Shown in pieces: positions 2,080 to 60,429 of a stretch of 64,000 bases of DNA (positions are counted from its first letter, which is position 1; each line of letters begins with the position of its first letter). The DNA comes from Octopus vulgaris (lineage: Eukaryota), in NCBI GenBank assembly GCA_951406725.2, contig OX597818.1, positions 119,598,001-119,662,000 on the forward strand. The letters are read 5' to 3'. Under the pieces are notes generated by a model. It saw only the letters and a list, made by a program, of their open reading frames with translations. It did not search any database and had not been told where the DNA came from. The translations under genes were made by a program, and so were the position numbers.

Positions 2080-4320
2080 TTCTGAGCCGAGGAATTAACG
2101 TTTTTATTAATTGAGTATTCTGACTAGTCTTCCTATTTCGCTTGCGATATTGAGTCCACTAGCATTCTGGTATTTTTGTCTAAATTTCTTAGATGGAGGC
2201 ATCGTTATTGTTCACTGATTTATTGGGATTTTGTGCTCATTTAAAAATTTTTTTGTTATATTCACAAACTTTCGACCATTGCCCCGATTGTCCTTCTTAT
2301 GCTTCTCGATAATGTCTAAACGCTGATGAGGGACAAACACAGACTCAGTCTTACACACACACATACATATCTATACACAGTTCTTTCAGTTTCAGTCTGC
2401 CAAATCAATTCACAGGTCTTTGGTCGGTCTGAGACTATAGTAGAAGACCCTTGCCCAAGATGCAACACAGTGGAACTGAACCAGGAACCATGTGGTTAGG
2501 AAGCAATCTACTGACTACGCAGCTACATATCATTAGCAGTTTAATTATTTAACGTATCGTGTACAGTTGAAGTTCTTATATCTCTTCATCTATGTTTTAT
2601 ATTCCTTCAGTTTTATTACAGTTTCGATTTCCTAACAGCTATATATCTTCTTTTTATTATCGAAGTTTTGTTTTTATTTGTTTCACTTTTTTTTCCTGTT
2701 TCAGTAAGAGAAATCGTATATTCTTTTCATAAATCAATTGATTTATGAAAGTATTTTATTCCTAGCAAATATTGACAAATTAAGTTTGCTAAAGCAATTT
2801 TGAATTTTTTTTTTTATTAATGTTTATTACTTTATATATTTCGTGTTAGCCATTTTTCTATCAACAGAAAATTTTCTCACAACGAAATATTCAGAAAAGA
2901 AATTAAAAAATTCAACCGTTTATATTTATCTTTCATTATATACTTTACATGACAATTTGCTGTACTGTTTGTAAATTTCAAAATTCGTTCAACAATCGAA
3001 TGTAACGCTTCTAAAGAATTTGTTTTCGCACTTTCTTTATTCTTGTTAGAGTAAATCATTATTGTCCTGTAAAAATTCTAACGTTTCGTTCTCACTTTAA
3101 CACTCACAAATGTTATAGTGACTTTCGTAAACAAACTTCCAACTCGTTAACTGGAGATTGAATCCAGAGAATGGCCACTCGACTGACTGGCATGAAATCT
3201 TATATAAACATACTTCATAGATGCGTTTCTCTCCTCCTTTACTACTGCAACTAAAATGGTATCTACTAATCGGAGCTTACTGTTATTATGCAAAATCAAT
3301 TCTGCTCCTTTTTTTTCAGATGGGAAGGCTAATATTATTGTTCTAGTTACTAGAAGTAGGAAACGGATGTGAAATTTAAGTTAATAAATTTGCAGTGAGT
3401 TTCAGTCTACAGATGTACGGCTGTTGACCCAAAGATCGATTAAATAAGTACCAGTCGAGTACTGGTGTTGATGTGATCGATTTACTTCTTCCCTATGAAT
3501 ACTGCTCGTGTGCCAAGATTTGAAACGCATAAACTTGAAGATTAAATGTTCCTCATAAGGAATGGTATATTAAAAGATATTTATTTTATATATTATTCTT
3601 CACATATGGTACATTTAGTTTGGAAAAAAATATCAATCATGCATTTCTAAACGATTTCAGAATGTTTTGTCTCAGTATATGTATAAGGTAATGTGGTGCT
3701 ATTTTGATAGAAATATGTCTTGACATTTCCAAAAAATGTTATATGCCGTTCAATAAATCTGCCAATATCATCTTAAGCACTCTGACCTGTCCGAGAAGAA
3801 TTGTCCATGAAAAATATCTCTAGTTTTATCCTAGGAAGGATTACATGTCATAGTAATAAATCTAGTTTTACCAATTTTCTCACCATAACCATGGCATCAT
3901 AACAGTTTTCTCTCATGTTTCAAAGATGATATCAAAATGGTTATAGTTATACATCTTACATGAGTTCCTCCATCGTTGGCGACGGTAGCTAGATGATTAG
4001 TAACTTAGATACTATTAAATTCGGAAAGGTCTTTGCGCCAACTTCAATATGAGACTCGAAAACCCGTCGCTGAAAGAATATTCTTATGTACAGAAGTTGT
4101 ATTCTTCTGCTGCTAATTTGGCAACCATGTATTTCAGTAGTCTTATACTATATTTCTTACATTGCCATAAAGGCAGAACGCAGATAATGTAGCTTTGCGA
4201 GCTGGACACAAACATTAATGAAATTAATGATAATGATGCACTAACGAAAAAGATAGGAGAAACCAGAAAGCGCCCGCCGACCCTCTGCTTCTCTATAACA
4301 TTGTTCTTTACAAAACACAT
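2080..4320 (-). mobile_element. Highly degenerate Helitron RepHel remnant (Rep domain)
   Basis: Frameshifted minus-strand translation at about 3836-3910 gives YDAMVMVRKL-KLD-FITMTCNP (Helitron Rep YQDAMAIVRKFGKPDLFITFTCNP), then FGNVKTYFY; IGRLV near 2125-2140; boundaries approximate. Confidence 0.6.
2375..2525 (-). mobile_element. SINE family A, 5' half, diverged
   Basis: Matches SINE-A head/core (GGAACTGAACCAGGAACCATGTGG, TTGCCCAAG). Confidence 0.8.
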
Positions 4321-4554
4321 GAACTGAGGACTTAACCCTCTTTCAATTTTTAAAATACCTTATTTGGACTTAAAAAGTCCATACAATACAATATACATAT
4401 ATATTTCAGTAATCTTATACTGATGCATCTGTTGACGTTCAAGATTAATGTTCGATCTTGGTTTCCATCTTTTATCTCCAAAAAGAGAGAATAATGTGTA
4501 ATCGTTGCATGAAAATTAAGGCTCGGTGTATCGTAACTGATGAGGGACGTTTCT

Positions 4555-27175: not shown

Positions 27176-27956
27176 GTGAGATGCGGGACCTGGGGATAGA
27201 CATGAGTGACGATGCATCTTTTTCTTCACACATCGCGAAGGTGGCGACAATGTGCAGACGACTCACTGGCTGGATCCTGAGGACATTCCGGACAAGAGAC
27301 TGCGAGACCATGTTGACACTATGGAGGACATTTGTCCTAAGCCGCCTGGACTACTGCTCCCAACTGTGGTCACCGCATAGTGTCAAACTAACCACAGAGC
27401 TTGAGACAATCCAAAGACATTTCACCAAGAGGATTTCCACCATGAAAGAAAAGAACTATTGGGAGAGGCTTAGGGAACTCAATTTGTACTCCTTGGAACG
27501 AAGACGAGAGAGATATGCAGTGATATACATATGGAAAATCCTGGAGGGACTAGCACCAAATTTGGGAATTGAGAGCTGTTCCAATCCCCGTACAGGACGT
27601 CACTGTGTGGTGCCAAAGGTCCCGTCTTCCACATCTAGGGTAAGGAGCAGATACTGTAATAGCCTGGGGTTCAGGGGCCCTCAGCTGTTCAACAAACTGC
27701 CAAGAGATCTAAGAGATCTACATGATGCGGATGTGGACATTTTCAAAAAACATCTAGACAAGCTGCTTTCCGGGATCCCAGATGAACCCACTGCCAGGTA
27801 CGAAGGTAACCTAAGGGCAGCAGCTACAAACTCTCTCTTAGATCAGTGGCCAGCCACGGCAAACTGGACTTAGAGAGGGTAGCAACAAGGGCGGTGCCCC
27901 AGCATGGCCTCAGCCGGATGGCTGAAACAAGTAAAAGACTAAAAGACTAAAAGACT
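27176..27956 (+). mobile_element. CR1-clade LINE 3' fragment (open ORF 27181-27873) with (AAAAGACT)n tail
   Basis: DLGIDMSDD..F..HI, LDYCSQLWSP, LETIQRHFTK, LYSLERRRER; 3'UTR ends GCTGAAACAAGTAAAAGACTAAAAGACTAAAAGACT. Confidence 0.9.
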
Positions 27957-36059: not shown

Positions 36060-36384
36060 TGTGTATGTGACTGTGTACATGGTGTGTGTGTATGTGTGTA
36101 TGGATATATCATACGCATATTTGTATATATATATATGCATATGTCCTCTGTCTTCAGGAATCATAAAGAAAATTTATTGCAGCGAGGCAAAATGATAGAC
36201 GGAAGACACAATTGCAAACAAGCGCACGCAATATGTGAATATGTGTATATATATAGTAGTGGATATGTTTTTGTATGTGTATATGTATGTGTGTGTGCGT
36301 GAGGGAGAGAAAGAGGGATCGTGTGATTGTGTACACAAACATACACTTACTCATGCACACACGAACACACACACGCATATATAT

Positions 36385-37273
36385 ATATATATATAATTGA
36401 AGATGCCCGAAAGCAAACCTGTCTTGCGTTGGTTAATATTTTTTTCAATGATTTCGGTTGCATTTTGCTCTTGATAATTTTGTGTGTGCCTAAAATGTTC
36501 ATTGTTTTATCTCCTGTGAGAATGGGTAAATTTTGGATAATAATGTTGAAGGCTTCGTTGTTTCTAGGGTTATGTGTGGAGATGTATGAGAGCATTCTAA
36601 AGTCTGGTTTAGTATTTCGGTTGACTTCCCTTAATGTTCGTAGGACTATTTCCTTAGCTCGTTTAATGCCATCATTTATTAATGATATTGGGTAATGTTT
36701 TTTGATTAGTATTGATCTGAGTTCAAGGAGTCTTCGTTGACGAGTATTGGTGTCCGAAACTATAGTACAGATTCTTTTCGCTAGATTATAAGGTATATTA
36801 ATTTTTATGTGCTTGGGGTGGCATGGGTTGAATAATAGGTATTGTTTTGAATCTGTGGGTTTATAGAAGATGTCTGTGTTGATGTGGTTATTGACTAATT
36901 TAATTAAGATGTCAAGAAAAGGGATTTGTGTATTGGTGTGTTCCTTGGTAAATTGTATGTTGTTATTGATATTGTTGAATATTATTTTGAAATCGAGGAG
37001 TTTGTCCATGCTATCTTTCCAAAGTATAAAGCAATCATCTAAATACCTCTTCCAGTTCTCATTTAAATAACAATGAAATGAGGTGCCATATGTTTGTAGT
37101 GATGATTGGTATATTTTAAGTTCTAGGTAACCTATTACAAGGTTCGCGATCGCTGGGGCAGCTCGGGTTCCCATCGCAATTCCACATCCTTGTCGATAGT
37201 GGACTGTATCGAACATGAAATAGTTATTCAGTAGGATGAATTTTAGCGCTGCGATTATGAATCTATGCTTCAT
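36385..37273 (-). mobile_element. Penelope-like element RT fragment (open frame of about 300 aa, truncated at both ends)
   Basis: YRQGCGIAMGTRAAPAIANL, RYLDDCF, IPFLDI, YKPTDSKQYL..CHPKHIK..IPYNLAKRI (PLE RT and thumb); GIY-YIG domain absent. Confidence 0.9.
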
Positions 37274-41880: not shown

Positions 41881-42810
41881 GGAGAGTTTTAGAAATAAAT
41901 TTTTTTAAAGGCTTCAACAGGTGAATATTCGTGTTAGTCCGTTAGTAATTTGGTCGAAAATATCTGGTCTGATGAAAATAACTACGAGGGCTTTATGTAT
42001 TCTCGGTATTTGATAAAATAATTTGCATTTAAGAAAATTGATTCTGCAAGAATAACTGTTGCATGAAGGACAAATAGTGAAGAAGGCTTTGACATATTTA
42101 ATTTAGTGATCCAAGGAATTGAAATTAATTAAATTTAAAACCGTAGGGATGCGAAAACTCATTATTTTAATCGCCATCTCTAATCAAGAAAAACACTAGA
42201 CACAAACCCAGCATTGCAGGTAGTTAGTGTTATTTAAAAGTAGAATGCAGTGGGGACTGTGTATAATCTTCGGCATGTCTTTCTATCTTTTGAGACCTCA
42301 TCAGTGTCTGTATGTGTATGTGTGTGCATGTGTGTATGTCTGTGTGTGCGTGTGGTATCATAGCGTCATTTTAATCAGACGTTTTAAAAAGGAGATTCAA
42401 TTCTACGAGATTTGGTCTTTACAGAGATGTTGTCTTCTCTACCTGTAGACGTACGACTGGACACATGTTGAGCTTAGAAAGACATTACACGGGTATCATT
42501 TATTTTAGCCATTTGATTATCTAAGATGCTAATCTGATAATACTTAGTTTCTTGCCCGTCACATTTGATCATGGCCGAGGTTCGTAGAAAAGAAAGTCTT
42601 GAGGTGTTTAAAATCTTAATATAACGCATAAGTAACAGAATCTTTGACAGTGTCACCCGTTACAGTAACAATGCCCACGGATTAAAAGATAAAATTATCG
42701 AAAACCCCAGCCTGGTATGATGAAGAACATTATTTTTTTCGTAATCCCTTTGTTACTCAAAGTTTAATAGAATATAGGAAAGGTCTTTCAATGTTTAATA
42801 GCATAATATA

Positions 42811-42843
42811 TAGGCGTAGGAGTGGCTGTGTGGTAAGTAGCTT
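42811..42843 (+). mobile_element. 5' end of a SINE-A head split by Tx1 insertions (continues 50326-50364)
   Basis: AGGCGTAGGAGTGGCTGTGTGGTAAGTAGCTT, resuming as AAGTAGCTTGCTTATGAATCACATG..GGGTTCAGT. Confidence 0.85.
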
Positions 42844-44875
42844 CTTACCTTCGTCTGAGTTAGACGTGTTATTTTGCTGCTCCGGTTGCCACGTTGTTTC
42901 AACGTGAATTGTTGAACTTTCGACTCGACTGCAGGTAGGAATTTTGTATTTTTGCGAGCGAAGTGAAGCTTTATTACTTGCATTAATGTAATTTAGCATT
43001 AAATATTTTTTAGCAGATAATAAGGCTCCATTTTGCTCCGGATATAATTTTTCTGCCTGTTGTCGGGTGTGAAGAAAATTGTGTTTTTGAGGCGGCGTAG
43101 TCCGTCTACAAAAATTATTTTTGAAATTATCGTTGTGTTATCTACGGATTTACCAAGGATCATTTACCAAGGTGTTGTACCAACCATATACTTGGCCTGG
43201 AGTACAATTTTTGGCCGAAAAAGTGAAAAAATTCCTTTGTCTGAATTTGAACTCTCTTTCTCTGCCTATGATTCATTTGTAAAAAACTTTCTTTGAACTG
43301 CCATTTTAATTTTATTTCTCCCCTTCTGTTGCTTTTTTCATTCTCCTTTCTGTGTCTAATTTATTTTGTAACATTTTGAACTGTTTTTCTTAAGTTATGG
43401 CAAGGAATTTCACAGTGTGGGAATTAACACCTCCCAAAAAATATTTGAACGAACTTGAGGAAAAGACAGTGGTGCTGAGGACATATTCGAAGTCTCTCGG
43501 CACCATAATGGTCTTTCCGAAAGACACAATTATGAACGAACTGGCAGACTATATGCCAGCCGTTAAACACATTCAACGGGGAGCCAAATACGCAACGATT
43601 TGGTTGCTGTTTGACTCTCCTAAAGCAGCTTGCGATTTCGCAAGTAAGCCCATTGAGGGCGAAGAGATTCTGTTTCTCCCAAGCTATAAGGGGGAAAAAT
43701 TGATACGTTTATGGGTCTGCGGCCTGCCGCCCGGCTTTGAGCCCGAGTGGGTGGAAGATTCCATCCGCCGGGGTCTGAGTGGTGGTAGCGCCAAGATCCT
43801 GAACGTAAGAATGCAGCCTGCGGCTAACTGGGAAGGAGGAAAGGCTACTTTAACTCTGTGGACCCAGTCGGCCAAGAGTCTGGTTTTGCCGGACTTCCTA
43901 AAGATGGCCGGTTCCAAGTATCCGGTGATGCTAGAGGGACGCGCCCCCAAGTGTCACCTGTGCTCGGAGACCGGCCATATTAAGAAAACTGCCCCAGGAA
44001 CCAGAGTAGGATCCTGGAGAAGTTAATTTTAGAGCCTCTCCCTGCCTCACCAATGGAGGGAGAGAAACAAAGCGAGGAGGGGGAAAAACCCTCCGCCAAA
44101 AGAAAAAGAAGAGTGGGAAGCAATGGCGACCCACAAAAGGAACCGGAGGCTGCGGAAGAAAAAGAGAACCCGGTGCGTATAGCACCGGAACCTCAACCTC
44201 CCGAGGCCAAGCGTAAAAAGAAAAAGAAAAAGAGGAACGGGACGCCGCCAGTGGACTGTAACACCCAGAGGGCGTCTCCCAGGTGTCCTCCGGCGATTGT
44301 AATGCCGGACAAATTTTATGTAGTCCTCTTCCATAAAGGAGGCACTATAGAAAACGAAATACGTAAGAGGAGGAAGAGAAACGAATGGGAGGGACTTCGG
44401 TCCTGCATGGAGTATCCCGAGTGGCCTTCGCAGCTGGCTGCGGAGGTCCTACTCGAAAATGATATGTGCAGGATCGAGAATTCTTTCCCGGAGGATCTCT
44501 TGCAAGTCATACCAGTATGCGGAAGCCTGTCGATGGACGATTGCGTCATTAAAGCAAAAGAGTTCATCGGTCAGGTAACGTAAAATTGTAATTGTGTTAC
44601 ATTGTGACAGAGGTTTATTGCCTCTGAAGAGACTTTTAAAAAGTGTAAATTGTAAATTGAAATTTCTGTGAAAATTTTTTGAATTTTTTGTAATTTTTGA
44701 AATTTTGTAAATGATTGAAAAAAAAAAGAACATTGTTTTAGAGAAGCAAAAGTCGGCGGGCGCTTTCTGACTTCTCCCATCACCATCGTCATCCACCACC
44801 TCCATCATCCATTAATGTCCTTGTCCAGCCCGCAGCTACTCTGTGTGCTGCCCTAGTGGCAAATTATATAAAATA
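42844..44875 (+). mobile_element. ORF1-only non-autonomous Tx1-like retroelement
   Basis: About 550-nt 5'UTR, ORF1, about 290-nt 3'UTR ending GCCCTAGTGGCAAATTATATAAAATA; flanked by AAGTAGCTT; no ORF2. Confidence 0.8.
43397..44583 (+). CDS. Tx1-like ORF1 (gag-like, CCHC knuckle), about 395 aa after one frameshift repair near 43985
   Basis: EGRAPKCHLCSETGHIKK(N)CP restored by adding one A; then open to 44583; homologous to the downstream ORF1. Confidence 0.75.
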
Positions 44876-45281
44876 AAGTAGCTTTGCTAACCTCACTGAC
44901 AGAAGAGTGACTTTGCCTACCGTACTACGGTTTGGACGCGTTTTCTTCCCGGTAAGAGTTTTGCTGTGTTGTTAATTGTTGAATTCCTACTACTGAAAAT
45001 TTGCCTTTAAACGTTGCTGAACTGTCTTGTTCTCCGGTTTTACCGGGAAATAATTGAATAATTTCTTACCGTTGAACTGTTAGCCACTGTGGCTTTTTAT
45101 TTACGTGACTATATATAGTCCTGCCAGACTATTTTCGTGCCCCTCCCCCGAATGGGGGTGGGAATTGGAATTTTTGAACTGCTTTTTTGAACTACTTTGG
45201 AAGAAAAACTTTCTATAGGTTTCCCAGTTTTGTGGGAAACCAATATTCGTAATTTTTGTGTTGTCTAATTTCAACAGAATA

Positions 45282-46685
45282 ATGTCTGTTGAAATTATTC
45301 ACGAAAGTAGTGCTCTTGAGGAGAGCAATGTTAAAAAATTTTCTGAGGTAGCCGCAGTGGCTACCGAGAAGATTGACATCGATGTCAACCAGCTCGTCGA
45401 GCTATTTAAAAGAATGCAAGAGGAGGGTGGTGATGTTAAAATATCACCCTCCGCCAGTATCGTGGAGACCGAGAAGCGGACCGTAGTGTTTAAAACTTTC
45501 TGTCCACAAAGCAGAAGGTTCAAACACTTTGAAAAAAGCACCATCGAGAAATGCCTGTCCCCGATTTGGAAGGACATCGTGTACGTCGCCAGGGGACGGG
45601 CATATGGCACTGTGGATGTCCGCTTCTCGGGGGAAGAAATGGCCCGCGGGCATTCTGTGAACCCCCTAAAAACCAAGGAGGTGGTACTTTTTCCAAGCTA
45701 TAGGGGACGCAGGACGTCCCGGGTCAGGATTGTAGAAGCCCCGCCGGACGTAGATCCGGTAGAGGTAGTGGCCGCCCTGTTATATAAAAGGGCGGACAAA
45801 ATAAAAATACTAGAAGTAACATGCTCTACCCCTCGATTTTGGCTCGGGCGTAACATTAATATATTAATTCAAGGAACAGCGGAGGACCTGCAGCTCCTTC
45901 CTGAGAGGGTGCTCGTGGGCGAGAACGTAGCCCTCAGGGTACAGGTCGAAGGCCGAAAACCCACCTGTTACGCCTGCAGCAAAAAGGGCCACATTCGTGT
46001 AGACTGTCCAGACAAGCAAAAGAAACCGCAGACACCAGGCCCCTCAGATAATAAAAAAGTCCCTACCCTTGCAAACACACCTACCCCTACAAAAACAAAA
46101 AATCCCACTCCTGCTGTTACGGTGCCAACCCCAAAACAGACTGAAGAAAAAACCCAGCCCTCGCACTCACAAACCCCTACACTATTAAAACCTCCCACCC
46201 CCCTAAAAACTGCGGTGCCTACCGAACAAACTATTGCTACCACAGACGATACCATGGAGGTATCAGAGGGGGGATTTACACCAGTTCGTAAAAGAATTCG
46301 TGCAGCATCCCCGTCCACATCCCCTACAAAAAATAATAAAAACAAAGACACACCACAGACACGGAAAAAAAAATCCCGCTCAACTGGCCCAGAAAAAGAA
46401 GACAAAAAAGAAAATGAACTCATATTAATTGAATTCGACACACAAGACAAATACATAAACGATATTGTGGTTCAGCATCAGTCAGCAAGACTGTACAACA
46501 AATACAAAGATCGAAATAGACACGCGTGGATTGCGGAAACAACGTTCAAACAATTAAAAGACAGACACCCAAACGCCATCCGGCATATCGCGAACTTGCC
46601 GGACTATCTGAAGAAAGAGGAGAAAGAAGGGGCCCACAAACGTGTGGTGAGGTCGGCCCCCACCTCTCCAACGAAATGTAAGTAG
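45282..46685 (+). CDS. Tx1 ORF1 protein (CCHC knuckle, Pro/Thr-rich linker)
   Basis: Intact frame; EGRKPTCYACSKKGHIRVDC. Confidence 0.85.
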   Translation: MSVEIIHESSALEESNVKKFSEVAAVATEKIDIDVNQLVELFKRMQEEGGDVKISPSASIVETEKRTVVFKTFCPQSRRFKHFEKSTIEKCLSPIWKDIVYVARGRAYGTVDVRFSGEEMARGHSVNPLKTKEVVLFPSYRGRRTSRVRIVEAPPDVDPVEVVAALLYKRADKIKILEVTCSTPRFWLGRNINILIQGTAEDLQLLPERVLVGENVALRVQVEGRKPTCYACSKKGHIRVDCPDKQKKPQTPGPSDNKKVPTLANTPTPTKTKNPTPAVTVPTPKQTEEKTQPSHSQTPTLLKPPTPLKTAVPTEQTIATTDDTMEVSEGGFTPVRKRIRAASPSTSPTKNNKNKDTPQTRKKKSRSTGPEKEDKKENELILIEFDTQDKYINDIVVQHQSARLYNKYKDRNRHAWIAETTFKQLKDRHPNAIRHIANLPDYLKKEEKEGAHKRVVRSAPTSPTKCK

Positions 46686-46701
46686 AACCTTTACTTTTGT
46701 A

Positions 46702-49700
46702 ATGGCTTCGCTTAACCTTGGTTGTTTAAATGTGCGTGGTCTGAGTTCGAAGTGGAAGCAGGCTTGTTTCCTCGACGACCTCAGATCACATGATATACAT
46801 GTGATGGTTGCTACAGAGACCAAGCTGGACAGCCTACAAACCTTCTCGCCTCTCCTGAATGGCTACGAGAAAATCATGTCTCCTGGCCAGACCGGAGGGC
46901 GAGGGGCGTAGTGGTACTGATCCGTAAAGACTTGGCTCTACAGACAAGTACAGTCTATGTAGACCCAGAAGGTGGGCTGGTCGTCCTTGATGTGACATAC
47001 AGCAGTAAGGCCTTCAGGTTGATCGGACTCTATGCACCTTGTGCTAGAGGTTTCCAAACTGATTTTTATCGGCGCCTAGAGGGCTTTCTCGTGACGTCGA
47101 AGACTTTAGTGATATTAGGGGACTTTAATGCTATCGTTGACGTACACATCGATAGCGTTGGCTCGATCTATAGGAAAGTGAACTCACGTCTCGTGGATCT
47201 GCTTAAGCGGTTTCAGCTAGCAGATCGTTACAGACTTGACCATCCGAACGTCCCAGAGTGGACCTGGATGAGTGGCGACGGAAGGTTCAAGTCTTATCTA
47301 GACAGGATAGTGATAAGAACTAGAGATAAGTCTAGTTTTAGTTGTCCACAGCTCGTCCAGGTGCCCTATACTGACCATAGAATGGTCACGTGTAGACTGG
47401 ACATAGATAGCACACTTAAGATAGGAACCGGCTACTGGAAGCTGAACAAGTCTATTTTGACACGCGAGGCATACCGTAGCCGGATTAAGGTGTTAGTGCA
47501 GAGGGCGTTAACCGGAGCCGTGGTTAATAACCGGTGGTGGTTCACCCTCAAAAGAGCCATTCGATTCGAGTCCATTAGATTTAGTAAACAACTAAGACTA
47601 GATAGGGCTAGAATAGAAGGGCAACTAGTTAAGAACTTAGAGGAGGCGTTGAGGTTGGGCTCTGCATCTCACATTTTAGCGGCGAGAACGGCATTAGACC
47701 GTCACCTCAAAACCAAACATGAGGGATGTAGAGTCCGGGCTAAAGTACGAGCATTGGGCCGTGAGGGAATTAATGTTGCCGGATGGGCCCGTACGATAGA
47801 AACACAGCGTGGAAACGATGCCACAATTGGGTCTCTTGTTGATGAAAACGGATGCACGATCAAGAAGCGGGACGAGATGTGTGAGGCACTCCACAAGCAC
47901 TTCGCCGAGTTGTTCGGGAGGTGCGGGACGCTAGATCATGGTGAGGCCCTTAGGGACTTCCTGTCTGGTGGCCCGCGCCTCTCGACACGAGAGGCTGAGT
48001 GCTGTGAAGGGCCAATCACAGCCGAGGAAGTAATCGAGGTGTTGGGCAAGTGCCCCGGGGAGAAGTCGCCGGGTCTCGATGGTCTGCCCTATGAATTTTA
48101 TAGAAGTATGCCAAACTTGTTCGGGCACCTGCTGGCTAGCGTCTACGCCAACTGGCAGCAGAATGGGAGAATTCCCAAGTCTGCGAGCCGGGGGGCGGTG
48201 ACCTTGATCAGGAAGGACCCGAACAAGGGGGACGAGATAGGGAACTTCAGGCCCATAACTCTGTTAAACACAGAGTTAAAGATTCTGGCCAAGGTGCTAG
48301 CAAAAAGGTTGGCGCGGGTCGTGGACAAACTTGTCGGGGAAGCGCAAACGTGCGCTATCCCCGGCAGAACGATCCACGACAATCTCCACCTTATACGCTA
48401 CTCCTTAGAGAGGGTGGGGAAGCTTTCTGGCGCAGGGGGAGCACTGGTACATTTAGACCAGTCCAAAGCATTTGATAGGGTCGACCATCGGTACCTGGCG
48501 GCGGTCCTCGGAGAGGCTGGCCTAGGCCCGACCTTTCGAGGTTGGATCGCTGCTTTGTATAGCGACATCGAGTCTGTAGTCAAGGTGAACGGTTCCTGTT
48601 CGACGCCGTTCAGGATCGAGCGTTCAGTTCGTCAAGGGTGTCCCCTGTCCTCGCTCCTATACGTATTGGCTCTTGAGCCTTTGCTGCGGAAGTTGGAGGC
48701 ACTAGGGGCGCGCCGCATGATCTATGGTGTGGAAGAGGAGCTACGGCGTATGCGGATGACACCTCCATCATTGTGGCAGACGAAGGCCAGCTTCCAGTGG
48801 TGGAAGAGGCCATAAAAAGCTACGAGGCGGTGGCAGGAGCAAAGGTTAACAAGGACAAGTCGGTCGGTTTGCAACTCGGCACCTGGAGGGGCAAGCCGAT
48901 GCCGTCCAATAACGTCGTAGGGCGTTGGACGGAAGGTCCTGTTAAGCTGCTCGGAGTCTGGTTCGGGCCAGACCTCCAGATTGAGAAAATTGGAGTGAGG
49001 TGGCCAACAAGGTGACCGCTCTAACCCAGACCTGGTCTGGGCGGGCGTTATCCCTGCTAGGGAAGGCGGAGGTGGTGCAGATGTTTATAGCATCAGTAAT
49101 CACCTACCGTCTGACCGTGGTGCCTTGCCCCGATTTGTGGCTGAACAAGTTGGAGAGAATCCTTTTCCGATTTTTGTGGAAAGGAGGAAAGCCACTTGTA
49201 AAGCGCTCTGTCTGCTGCCAGAAACCGCTAAAGGGTGGGCTAGGGATGCCTTGGCTGAGGATGCGAAAACTCGCGTTAAGGTTGAGGCACCTCTGGCTTT
49301 ACCTGGATGGAGAGCAGGTGTGGTCGCCGCACGTCCGGTTCTACCTTCCCCAGTTAACATCCCTAACGGACATCGGTGCATGGATCAAGCGGAGACCTAA
49401 ACTGAGTGAATGGCATTTGGAGTGCCGTCAGGCGCTCCAGCTACTATCTCGGGTGGGCAACGCCGGCAACAGGAGTTCCACCACGGATTTCTATAGCGGG
49501 TTAGTGGAGATTAAGTCCGAAGACGCCTTGGGGGAGACCCTGGGCTACGATGAAAATCAGTTGATCAACCTGTTCCGGAGGACGTTCGGGCCGGGGTATC
49601 TGGATAATTACCAGAAATCCCTAGCCTGGCAGTGTTTCCGTGCGGCTTTACCTGTTCGCGACAAGCTGTCAAGGCACGGTAGTGCCGTCTCGCCGACATG

Positions 49701-50097
49701 CCCGCGATGTGAGCAGGATAGGGAGACCGTCTTGCACGCATTCGTGGAGTGTCCGGAGTTATCGGGACTGATAGCTTTTGTAGAACAACTGTTGTCAGTG
49801 ATGGGAAGAGTACAGCTATCAGCTGAGTCTATCATCGAGATTGTGCCGCCCCCTTTCCTTAACAGGGAAAGAAAGGCTTGTTTTCTGTGTAGTAGCCATA
49901 CTGAAAGAAACAGTATGGAAGACGCGTACGAAAGGTATAGTGACAGGCACCTTTGTCTCCGGCCAGGGGTTGATTAACTTTTTAGTTACCACCTCAGTAG
50001 CAAAATCAGGCTGGAGAAGAGGTGTCTGTCACGAGATATGTTTGTGAAAAGATGGAAGCCTGTGGCATACAAGATGGGTATGTTTGGCACCAGGTAA
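46702..50097 (+). CDS. Tx1 ORF2: APE endonuclease, reverse transcriptase, C-terminal zinc finger; about 5 frameshifts
   Basis: LNVRGL, TETK, GDFNA, LDRI, TDHR, GYWKLN, KSPGLDGLP, FRPITLLN, DQSKAFDRV, VRQGCPLS, AYADD (shifted frame), GGLGMP, CPRC..ETVLHAFVEC. Confidence 0.9.
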
Positions 50098-50439
50098 GTG
50101 TGACCGGATCAGAAAGTAAAGGTTCTACCCGGATGGCTGGGTGTCCGTCCTTCGACATGATCATTAATATTTTTAAACATTGCCTTCGTAAAATTCATTG
50201 TTTATAATCTTATCCGTAATTTCATTCGAAAATTGTAACTGTGTTAAGCTACTTCACCCTTTATATTTGTCTGTCCTTATTTGTCCCCTCTTTGTAAATG
50301 CCTAAATGGCAAATTATATGAAATAAAGTAGCTTGCTTATGAATCACATGCTTTCGGGTTCAGTGGGACTGAACCTGGAACCATGTTGTTTGGAAGCAAG
50401 TAACTTACCACATTTGTATGTACTTATATATTCTTTTCT

Positions 50440-50808
50440 AATTTAGGCACAAGGTCCGACATTTTTGTGGAGGGGGCCAGTCGATTAGATCGACCCCAGT
50501 ACGCAACTGGTACTTAATTTATCGACCCCAAAATGCAAAGCCGACCTTGATGGAATTTGAACTCAGAACGTAAAGACAAACGAAATACCACTAAGCATAT
50601 TGCCCGACCTGCTAACGTTTCTTATTTCTTTATTGCCCACAAGGGGCTAACCATAGAGGGGACAAACAAGAACAGACAAAGGGATTAAGTCGATTATATC
50701 GACCCCAGTGCATGACTGGTACTTTATCGACCCCGAAAGGATGAAAGGCAAAGTCGACCTCGGCGGAATTTGAACTCAGAATGTCACGTTTCTGCCAGCT
50801 CGCCGCCT
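50440..50808 (-). mobile_element. SINE-B with a second SINE-B (50623-50785) nested in its head
   Basis: ACGTTTCT duplicated at 50615-50622 and 50786-50793. Confidence 0.85.
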
Positions 50809-59989: not shown

Positions 59990-60412
59990 AGTCTAGAATG
60001 TTGTCAGGCGCTCATCGCTTTCTGCCAGTCGAACAGTGGGATCAAGGACATTCCATTCAAGCAATCCTAAGAGAATTAGTGGATATAAAAAGTGACGAGG
60101 TTCTCGGAAAGATTCTTAATCTCGACGTAAAAGAAATGACTTGTCTGTTCCGGAGAAGTTTCTGATCGGGGATTACAATGGGAAAGAAATTTCCAGGAGT
60201 CTTTGACCTGACAGAGCTACGGAGTGATACTACCGGTTCGAGAGAAACTCCACAGGCACGGATGTGCCGTCAGAGGGGCTTGTCTGAGATCTACGGGGCG
60301 TGAGGAAACCGTTCTACACGCACTCATTTAGTGTCCGGGTATTGCTGACTTGTGAAGTTATGTCGAACAGCTACTGTCACATATGGGAAGGATCCGGTAA
60401 TCCTACGAGTAC
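59990..60412 (+). mobile_element. Decayed Tx1 ORF2 C-terminal fragment
   Basis: ECCQALI, LPVREKLHRHGCAV, EETVLHALI*CP, VEQLLSHMGR are homologous to 49420-49820. Confidence 0.8.
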
Positions 60413-60429
60413 ATAAATCGGCTGCTATT

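What the first reader, a model, noticed from the sequence alone, without database searches (positions are those of the whole stretch)
42844..44875. ORF1-only 'half-Tx1' non-autonomous retroelement
Seen: a 2-kb unit with its own 5'UTR, an ORF1 homologous to but strongly diverged from the neighbour's ORF1 (EEKTVVLRT/EKRTVVFKT, RGAKYATI/RGRAYGTV, FLPSYKG/LFPSYRG, EGRAPKC/EGRKPTC), no ORF2 remnant, and the shared terminal tail. Both 5'UTRs carry an RGACGYG motif near the start. Known: HAL1 elements are ORF1-only partners of L1. Inference: this is a long-diverged Tx1 equivalent that borrows ORF2p and its target specificity.
Basis: partly seen in the sequence, partly recalled or inferred. Interest (0 to 1): 0.78.

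Follow-up and report, generated by a model that had tools for sequence, protein, structure and literature searches.

The report
ORF1-only retrotransposon targeting an octopus SINE
A repeated 2-kb octopus jumping gene carries only a predicted RNA-binding gene, sits at one exact spot inside a very common short repeat, and likely borrows the cut-and-copy enzyme of a complete relative that uses the same spot; enzyme-less elements of this kind are known from three other groups of jumping genes.

Summary
Confirmed, with corrections. The unit is 42850-44876 (2,027 nt): 5'UTR, one ORF1 (two predicted RRM domains plus a CCHC knuckle; this copy has a one-base deletion near 43986), a 293-nt 3'UTR and no ORF2. 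It and a 5.4-kb L1/Tx1-type neighbour sit head to tail inside a SINE, separated by 14-16-nt copies of the target. Public contigs show a family: single contigs cross the ORF1 stop into the 3'UTR at about 19-26 times flank depth; 5'-truncated and tandem copies join the same SINE position; 18 of 28 listed variable codons in the RRM region are synonymous (23-30% expected). Its ORF1 is 26% identical to the neighbour's and lies on a long separate branch, so it is not a one-off deletion. Borrowing of ORF2p is inferred. The neighbour shares only the last 27 nt and the target, so the helper may be another family. It works like HAL1, HeT-A and Ag-Sponge; I found no printed Tx1-type or SINE-targeting example. 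This scan already noted the same system at ten other places in this genome.

The parts
42812..42835 (+). 5' head of the host SINE; an A-box-like word at 42823-42833 lies just before the insertion point
   Evidence: aligns with 7 other SINE heads found in the window; box consensus recalled
42836..42849 (+). left copy of the target (14 nt; one base shorter than in uninterrupted SINE copies)
42850..44876 (+). ORF1-only element (2,027 nt)
42850..43396 (+). 5'UTR (547 nt), not significantly similar to the neighbour's 5'UTR
42862..42868 (+). RGACGYG motif, DPE-like; +27 from the first base of the target copy here, +28 with a full-length target
   Evidence: DPE position from PMC4748587
43397..44583 (+). 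ORF1: two predicted RRM domains (about 43466-43933), CCHC knuckle (about 43952-43992), low-complexity linker, C-terminal domain; split by a one-base deletion near 43986 in this copy
44584..44876 (+). 3'UTR (293 nt); the last ~150 nt (from about 44725) is far more abundant in public contigs than the rest of the element
44849..44875 (+). terminal 27 nt shared with the neighbour (23/27 identical to 50299-50325)
44877..44892 (+). middle copy of the target (16 nt) between the two elements
44893..50326 (+). full-length L1/Tx1-type neighbour (5,434 nt): target-like 16-mer at 44906-44921, RGACGYG at 44934, ORF1 45282-46685, ORF2 46702-50097 (endonuclease, reverse transcriptase, zf-RVT) broken by several frameshifts in this copy
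50327..50341 (+). right copy of the target, followed by the continuation of the SINE (about 50342-50365)
4150..4401 (-). 252-nt insertion whose last ~150 nt are 74% identical to the element's tail, with its own 20-nt target duplication (4402-4421 and 4130-4149, 19/20 identical); not inside a recognisable copy of this SINE

Best explanation
This is one copy of a multi-copy 2-kb retroelement family that encodes ORF1 but no ORF2 and inserts at one position of an abundant SINE; it is likely copied by target-primed reverse transcription using ORF2 protein borrowed from a complete L1/Tx1-type element with the same target. Steps: (1) inferred: RNA polymerase II transcribes it from a DPE-type core promoter at its 5' end; (2) predicted: it makes its own RNA-binding ORF1 protein (two RRMs plus CCHC), whose RRM region shows purifying selection (shown); (3) inferred: a helper ORF2 protein recognises the conserved last ~27 nt, nicks the SINE between its A-box-like and B-box-like words and copies the RNA; (4) shown: insertions leave 14-16-nt target copies, are often 5'-truncated and stack head to tail; the stacking is likely possible because each insertion leaves a fresh target. 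The neighbour's family is a likely helper (about even odds against another family with the same target).
For: Multi-copy: single contigs crossing the ORF1 stop have depth 515.5 (X10, 44425-44724), 419.5 (X2, 44425-44673) and 108.3 (X11, 44485-44653), against 26.9, 17.5 and 4.19 for the flank contig, i.e. 19, 24 and 26 times (rough, flank assumed single-copy). ORF1-only: at 44514-44573 the whole depth at 85% likeness is one contig in X2 and in X10, and it runs on into the 3'UTR; at 80% X10 has two contigs there. Independent, site-specific insertion: of 15 joints shown (39 listed), 7 join the SINE head (42837-42843) to internal positions of the element, 3 of them inside ORF1 (43592, 44416, 44461); one is element-to-element (44883 to 42847); one joins the SINE head to the neighbour's start (44887); a loose end at 44884 continues as SINE in 10 contigs of X11. 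Selection: 18 of 28 listed variable codons in the N-terminal 197 aa are synonymous against 23-30% expected, p 3e-6 to 2e-4, pN/pS about 0.2. Other copies carry an extra base at the frameshift (43984-43986) and P0001 (Octopus sinensis XP_029652367, 66% identical) reads through it. Fold: pLDDT 83.9 with an alignment of 34; the best matches are tandem-RRM proteins (hnRNP A1/A2B1, HuD; E 5e-5 to 3e-4). Tree: the unit plus P0001 form a 100/100 clade on a branch of 1.97 changes per column apart from the other 17 rows, the neighbour's ORF1 among them.
Against: Mobilisation in trans is not shown. The neighbour shares only 27 terminal bases and lacks the rest of the 150-nt tail. The joints have only 21-26 letters on the SINE side, under the 30 the tool warns about, and a lay on this stretch cannot count insertions at other sites, so the share of copies in SINEs is unmeasured. 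A 74%-identical tail copy at 4150-4401 is not in a recognisable SINE. No contig spans a whole element. Subfamilies 80-90% identical lose alignment before the ORF1 stop, so ORF2 is not excluded for them. The variant tables are the best-supported 40 of 207 and 40 of 312 rows. The C-terminal half shows no synonymous excess (6 of 21, p 0.27-0.57). The three target copies differ from each other, which a simple sequential insertion at one site does not explain without later mutation or sequence carried along.
Confidence: 0.82

Rival explanations
1. Same mechanism, but the helper is not the neighbour's family: another complete element that shares the whole ~150-nt tail supplies ORF2 protein.
For: The tail from about 44725 has summed depth about 2,350 times flank in X1 and 4,680 in X10, against about 30 times just before it, so many more elements carry this tail at 85% likeness or more. 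The neighbour lacks it apart from the last 27 nt. 80 L1-Tx1 families are listed for O. vulgaris.
Against: The excess could be short 5'-truncated copies or a non-coding derivative; summed depth is no copy number. The neighbour's family uses the same site (joint 42843 to 44887 in 4 of 4 runs) and shares the terminal 27 nt.
Confidence: 0.4
2. The ORF1 lineage also exists as complete two-ORF elements (among the 80-90% identical subfamilies or P0001), so the ORF1-only state is a fairly recent deletion from such a parent and not an old condition.
For: Diverged subfamilies are abundant (for example a contig with 19 differences in 188 nt at 28 times flank depth in X2) and could not be followed past the stop. 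The DNA around P0001 could not be fetched.
Against: None of the 24 loose ends shown of 264 lies at or after the ORF1 stop. Contigs 12 and 13 of X14 (900 and 842 nt) have only about 540 and 330 nt left beyond their aligned parts, compatible with a short element but not proof.
Confidence: 0.15
3. The copies spread passively, inside amplified SINEs, tandem arrays or duplicated segments, without retrotransposing on their own.
For: The host SINE is extremely abundant and tandem joints exist.
Against: Seven different 5' truncation points joined to the same SINE position indicate separate insertions, the test used for SINEU-3 in PMC4494074. The synonymous excess in ORF1 needs protein-dependent copying.
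Confidence: 0.04
4. A one-off internal deletion of the neighbour or of a close relative.
For: The two elements are adjacent and share target and terminal 27 nt.
Against: ORF1s are only 26% identical, the 5'UTRs show no significant similarity, and the ORF1-to-3'UTR junction stands at 19-26 times flank depth.
Confidence: 0.01

Closest known systems
HAL1 (half-L1) and the 'ORF1-present' non-autonomous LINEs HeT-A and Ag-Sponge (PMC5753468 and PMC5786205, passages read; the original HAL1 paper PMC2923044 was not held)
   Same: Own 5'UTR, ORF1 only, LINE-type 3' end, many copies; must depend on another element's ORF2 protein.
   Different: Those derive from the L1, Jockey and CR1 clades. This one has an RRM-RRM-CCHC ORF1, no poly(A) tail and a fixed target inside a SINE, and its ORF1 is only 21-29% identical to every other ORF1 found except P0001.
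ORF1-only telomeric elements of Drosophila (PMC13534243, passages read)
   Same: ORF1-only lineages that persist, give rise to new ORF1-only families, share a target with complete partners and form head-to-tail arrays.
   Different: Jockey clade, target is the chromosome end; here the target is an internal site in a SINE, duplicated on insertion, and no benefit to the host is evident.
Target-specific Tx1-clade LINEs: Xenopus Tx1 in Tx1D; crocodilian Tx1-Mar with SINEU-3 in Mariner-N4_AMi (PMC4494074, passages and part 3 of 5 read)
   Same: Insertion at a fixed site inside another mobile element, ~16-nt target duplication, tandem copies sandwiching a duplication, a non-autonomous passenger sharing the target.
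   Different: There the passenger is a non-coding SINE and the target a DNA transposon; here the passenger encodes ORF1 and the target is a SINE.

Membership tests
ORF1-present non-autonomous LINE (HAL1-like) | encodes ORF1 and no ORF2 | tested here: met
   for the window copy and near-identical copies; subfamilies at 80-90% not followed past the stop
ORF1-present non-autonomous LINE (HAL1-like) | multi-copy family with the same ORF1-to-3'UTR junction | tested here: met
   19-26 times flank depth in 3 runs; rough estimate from contigs
ORF1-present non-autonomous LINE (HAL1-like) | marks of retrotransposition (target duplication, 5' truncation) | tested here: met
   target copies at 42836, 44877, 50327; 7 truncation joints of 15 joints shown
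ORF1-present non-autonomous LINE (HAL1-like) | ORF1 under purifying selection | tested here: met
   N-terminal 18 of 28 codons synonymous; C-terminal half not (6 of 21); selected variant tables
ORF1-present non-autonomous LINE (HAL1-like) | mobilised in trans by an autonomous element's ORF2 protein | not testable with these tools
   inferred from the absence of ORF2, the shared target and the shared terminal 27 nt
HAL1 in the strict sense | derived from vertebrate L1 (L1-type ORF1, poly(A) end; these features recalled) | tested here: not met
   fold matches are tandem RRMs and no L1 ORF1p chain is among the rows shown; a CCHC knuckle is present; the 3' end has no poly(A)
Tx1 clade | partner ORF2 of the endonuclease + RT + zf-RVT type related to L1 | tested here: met
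   Pfam RVT_1 and zf-RVT; human L1 ORF2p E 3e-48 against R2 E 7e-19; homologues carry PF03372
Tx1 clade | RT groups with reference Tx1 elements rather than L1 | not tested
   no named Tx1 reference was returned by any search; O. vulgaris has 13 recent 'L1-Tx1' families of mean length 5,436 nt against 5,434 for the neighbour, which is circumstantial
Tx1 clade | target sequence preference | tested here: inconclusive
   repeated use of one SINE position is shown; the share of copies at that site was not measurable, and one related tail copy lies elsewhere
tRNA-derived SINE (the target) | tRNA-like head with A and B boxes | tested here: inconclusive
   box-like words by a recalled pattern; ARAGORN finds 0 genes; Rfam gives no match at a family threshold in 42500-50600

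The most novel reading that the evidence does not exclude
The element's promoter is completed by its landing site. The DPE-like motif lies +28 from the first base of the duplicated target, so transcription would start on the target copy itself: only copies that land on the exact SINE site are expressed, and their RNA carries the target at its 5' end. The neighbour has instead fixed a target-like 16-mer inside its own 5' end at the same spacing (TACC-N12-RGACG occurs exactly twice in the window, once in each element). An enzyme-less element would then be under its own selection for site fidelity, and its long-conserved, divergent ORF1 protein may take part in choosing helper or target, as proposed for HeT-A.
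Probability: 0.25. Interest if true: 0.75.

Novelty: new variant of a known kind. Interest (0 to 1): 0.52.

Why it matters
It would extend the short list of protein-coding parasites of LINEs (HAL1, HeT-A, Ag-Sponge) to an L1/Tx1-type, site-specific system, with three tiers: an ORF1-only element riding on a LINE that targets a SINE. Why such elements keep their own ORF1 is an open question. Here a helper and a passenger with 26%-identical ORF1 proteins, unrelated UTRs and only 27 shared terminal bases make it testable: swap the ORF1s and tails and read out insertion at one known site. A SINE-specific endonuclease is also of interest for targeted insertion. The effect on the host is probably small; each insertion likely disables one SINE promoter.

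Tried and rejected
No assembled genome is held for this window, so copies could not be counted or read whole. Protein search for longer relatives (346-2000 aa): none of 472 candidates (weak evidence). Single-sequence fold failed (pLDDT 36.9); the alignment-based one worked. Pfam names no RRM in any of 34 aligned members, only zinc knuckles in 10. C-terminal domain homology to 9 other ORF1s: none convincing (best 12 of 300 shuffles, for the neighbour). A conserved hairpin at 44741-44776 is no more stable than shuffles (z 0.04; related copy z -0.35); the last 77 nt fold better than shuffles (z -2.8, 1 of 200) but the neighbour's do not clearly (z -1.5), one of five stretches folded. A word antisense to the target is significant in the neighbour's tail (9 nt, 0 of 2000 shuffles) but not in this element (7 nt, 169 of 2000) or the 4150 copy (149 of 2000), so I do not use it. 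Expression: no RNA holder is on record; contigs of X6 and X14 cover much of the element, but their RNA status is a guess and high-copy DNA could explain them, so no claim is made. Literature searches found no ORF1-only Tx1 or octopus SINE-targeting element; they cover open-access papers only, not Repbase Reports or the Zenodo repeat library of PMC13282606. For the tree, 12 of the 31 hits were left out (P0023 and P0030 beforehand, 10 because under 130 residues aligned).

Full report
Anatomy. The region reads: SINE head (42812-42835), target copy (42836-42849), the 2,027-nt unit (42850-44876), target copy (44877-44892), a 5,434-nt neighbour (44893-50326), target copy (50327-50341), SINE continuation. 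A 23-letter empty-site motif finds 7 uninterrupted SINE heads in the window, with none in any of 100 shuffles, and these align across the insertion point. The neighbour encodes ORF1 and a frameshifted ORF2 with RVT_1 and zf-RVT, closest among solved structures to human L1 ORF2p (E 3e-48; R2 E 7e-19). Named homologues of both ORF1s come from Octopus and Argonauta (7 of the 11 proteins looked up carry such names, 4 are unnamed), so the host is very likely an octopus.

The unit's coding content. ORF1 runs 43397-44583 but appears as two ORFs of 209 and 176 aa because this copy lacks one base near 43986, inside the zinc knuckle. Other copies carry an extra base there, and P0001, an O. sinensis protein 66% identical over 190 aa, is continuous across the break. 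The N-terminal part is 26% identical to the neighbour's ORF1 (E 6e-20). With an alignment of 34 sequences it folds at pLDDT 83.9, and the best structural matches are two-RRM proteins (TM-scores only about 0.3-0.4, probably because of domain orientation). No ORF2 trace was found (best E 0.067).

It is a family. No assembly is held, so I used public contigs. 20 of 24 listed runs hold part of the unit, none half or more of its words. In four runs the unique-looking left flank is one contig with no differences, while the unit is covered by many deep contigs. Single contigs cross the ORF1 stop into the 3'UTR at 19, 24 and 26 times flank depth, and in X2 and X10 that contig is the whole depth at 44514-44573 at 85% likeness. 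A near-identical copy continuing into ORF2 would be expected to branch there. This does not reach subfamilies at 80-90% identity, which lose alignment earlier. No contig spans a whole element, and depth ratios are rough.

It inserts independently at one site. Of 15 joints shown (39 listed), 7 connect the SINE head to different internal points of the unit (43592, 44416, 44461, 44752, 44810, 44843, 44860), one connects the unit's end to its start (tandem), and one connects the SINE head to the neighbour's start in all four runs; a loose end at 44884 continues as SINE. The unit and the neighbour therefore each occur without the other at the same position. Against: SINE-side overlaps are 21-26 letters, the four tail joints may belong to other families that share the tail, insertions at other sites cannot be counted by this method, and one related tail copy with a 20-nt duplication lies outside a recognisable SINE.

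ORF1 is maintained. Among the variants listed (best-supported 40 of 207 and 40 of 312), 18 of 28 variable codons in the first 197 residues are synonymous, against 23-30% expected for transition biases of 1-6 (p 3e-6 to 2e-4). The C-terminal half shows no excess (6 of 21). In a 19-row tree (the two window ORF1s and 17 of 31 hits) the unit and P0001 form a 100/100 pair on a long branch, apart from the other 17 rows, the neighbour among them (midpoint root, so age and acceleration cannot be told apart).

What it shares with the neighbour. The last 27 nt (23 identical), the target, and an RGACGYG motif 12 nt behind a TACC; this spaced pattern occurs twice in the window, once per element. The 5'UTRs and the rest of the tail are not significantly alike. 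The last ~150 nt are about 70-150 times more abundant than the preceding 3'UTR and are absent from the neighbour, so a different helper is a live option.

Mechanism. Shown: structure, absence of ORF2 in near-identical copies, many copies, target duplication, truncation, stacking, selection on the RRM region. Inferred from established LINE biology: transcription by polymerase II, target-primed reverse transcription by a borrowed ORF2 protein that recognises the 3' end, and site choice by that protein's endonuclease. DPE motifs at +28 to +32 are reported for several insect LINE promoters (PMC4748587, passages).

Comparison with what is known. PMC5786205 (passages) lists HeT-A (Jockey), HAL1 (L1) and Ag-Sponge (CR1) as ORF1-present non-autonomous LINEs. 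PMC13534243 (passages) shows that ORF1-only telomeric lineages arise repeatedly and can persist. PMC4494074 (passages and part 3 of 5) describes Tx1 elements that target other transposons with a non-coding passenger. PMC13282606 (parts 1-2 of 3 and a term search of its one supplement) counts 80 L1-Tx1 families in O. vulgaris, 13 of them recent, without mentioning targets or ORF1-only forms in what I read. PMC8967140 and PMC5753468 were read as passages. Seven searches found no description of this combination; subscription papers, Repbase Reports and deposited repeat libraries were not searchable. The element works like HAL1 but is not HAL1 in the strict sense; membership of the Tx1 clade is likely but untested by phylogeny.

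Earlier notes of this scan. Ten notes shown to me describe the same system elsewhere in this genome and one a similar case in another genome; none lies near this place. They are unchecked AI notes and I count them as leads only.

Verdict. Real, multi-copy and well explained by known principles combined in a way I could not find in print: a new variant of a known kind, interest 0.52.

Noticed in passing
window 4130-4421 (-): A 252-nt insertion related to the element's tail with a 20-nt target duplication. The site begins with AGTA like the SINE target and has ACATGGTT at nearly the same offset, so it may be a degenerate look-alike of the target.
   Followed up: partly
window 42809-42843, joints: Many contigs join the target position of one SINE head to the start of another SINE head (depth up to 46 times flank in X10), as if SINE copies also land at this site or a head-duplicated subfamily exists.
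   Followed up: no
window 44384-44481: A block in the C-terminal part of ORF1 is covered about ten times more deeply than its surroundings, i.e. it is conserved across diverged subfamilies; no known family matches it.
   Followed up: partly
window 50246-50254: The neighbour's 3'UTR holds a 9-nt exact reverse complement of the target core that can pair with a read-through copy of the target.
   Followed up: partly
window 50366-50412: The SINE continuation to the right breaks off after about 25 nt and is followed by an inverted SINE head fragment, so the host SINE is rearranged.
   Followed up: no
window 60076-60415: A decayed fragment of another L1/Tx1-type ORF2 3' region (about 50% identical to the neighbour, E 2e-20).
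   Followed up: no
P0006, P0032-P0034 and P0012: Other ORF1-like proteins (309-603 aa) on contigs of only 1.8-2.2 kb; four separate contigs end at about 1.9 kb, which could mark further ORF1-only families or simply short assemblies.
   Followed up: no
window 27181-27873 (+) and 36347-37273 (-): ORFs that look like fragments of other LINE-type elements; read by eye only.
   Followed up: no
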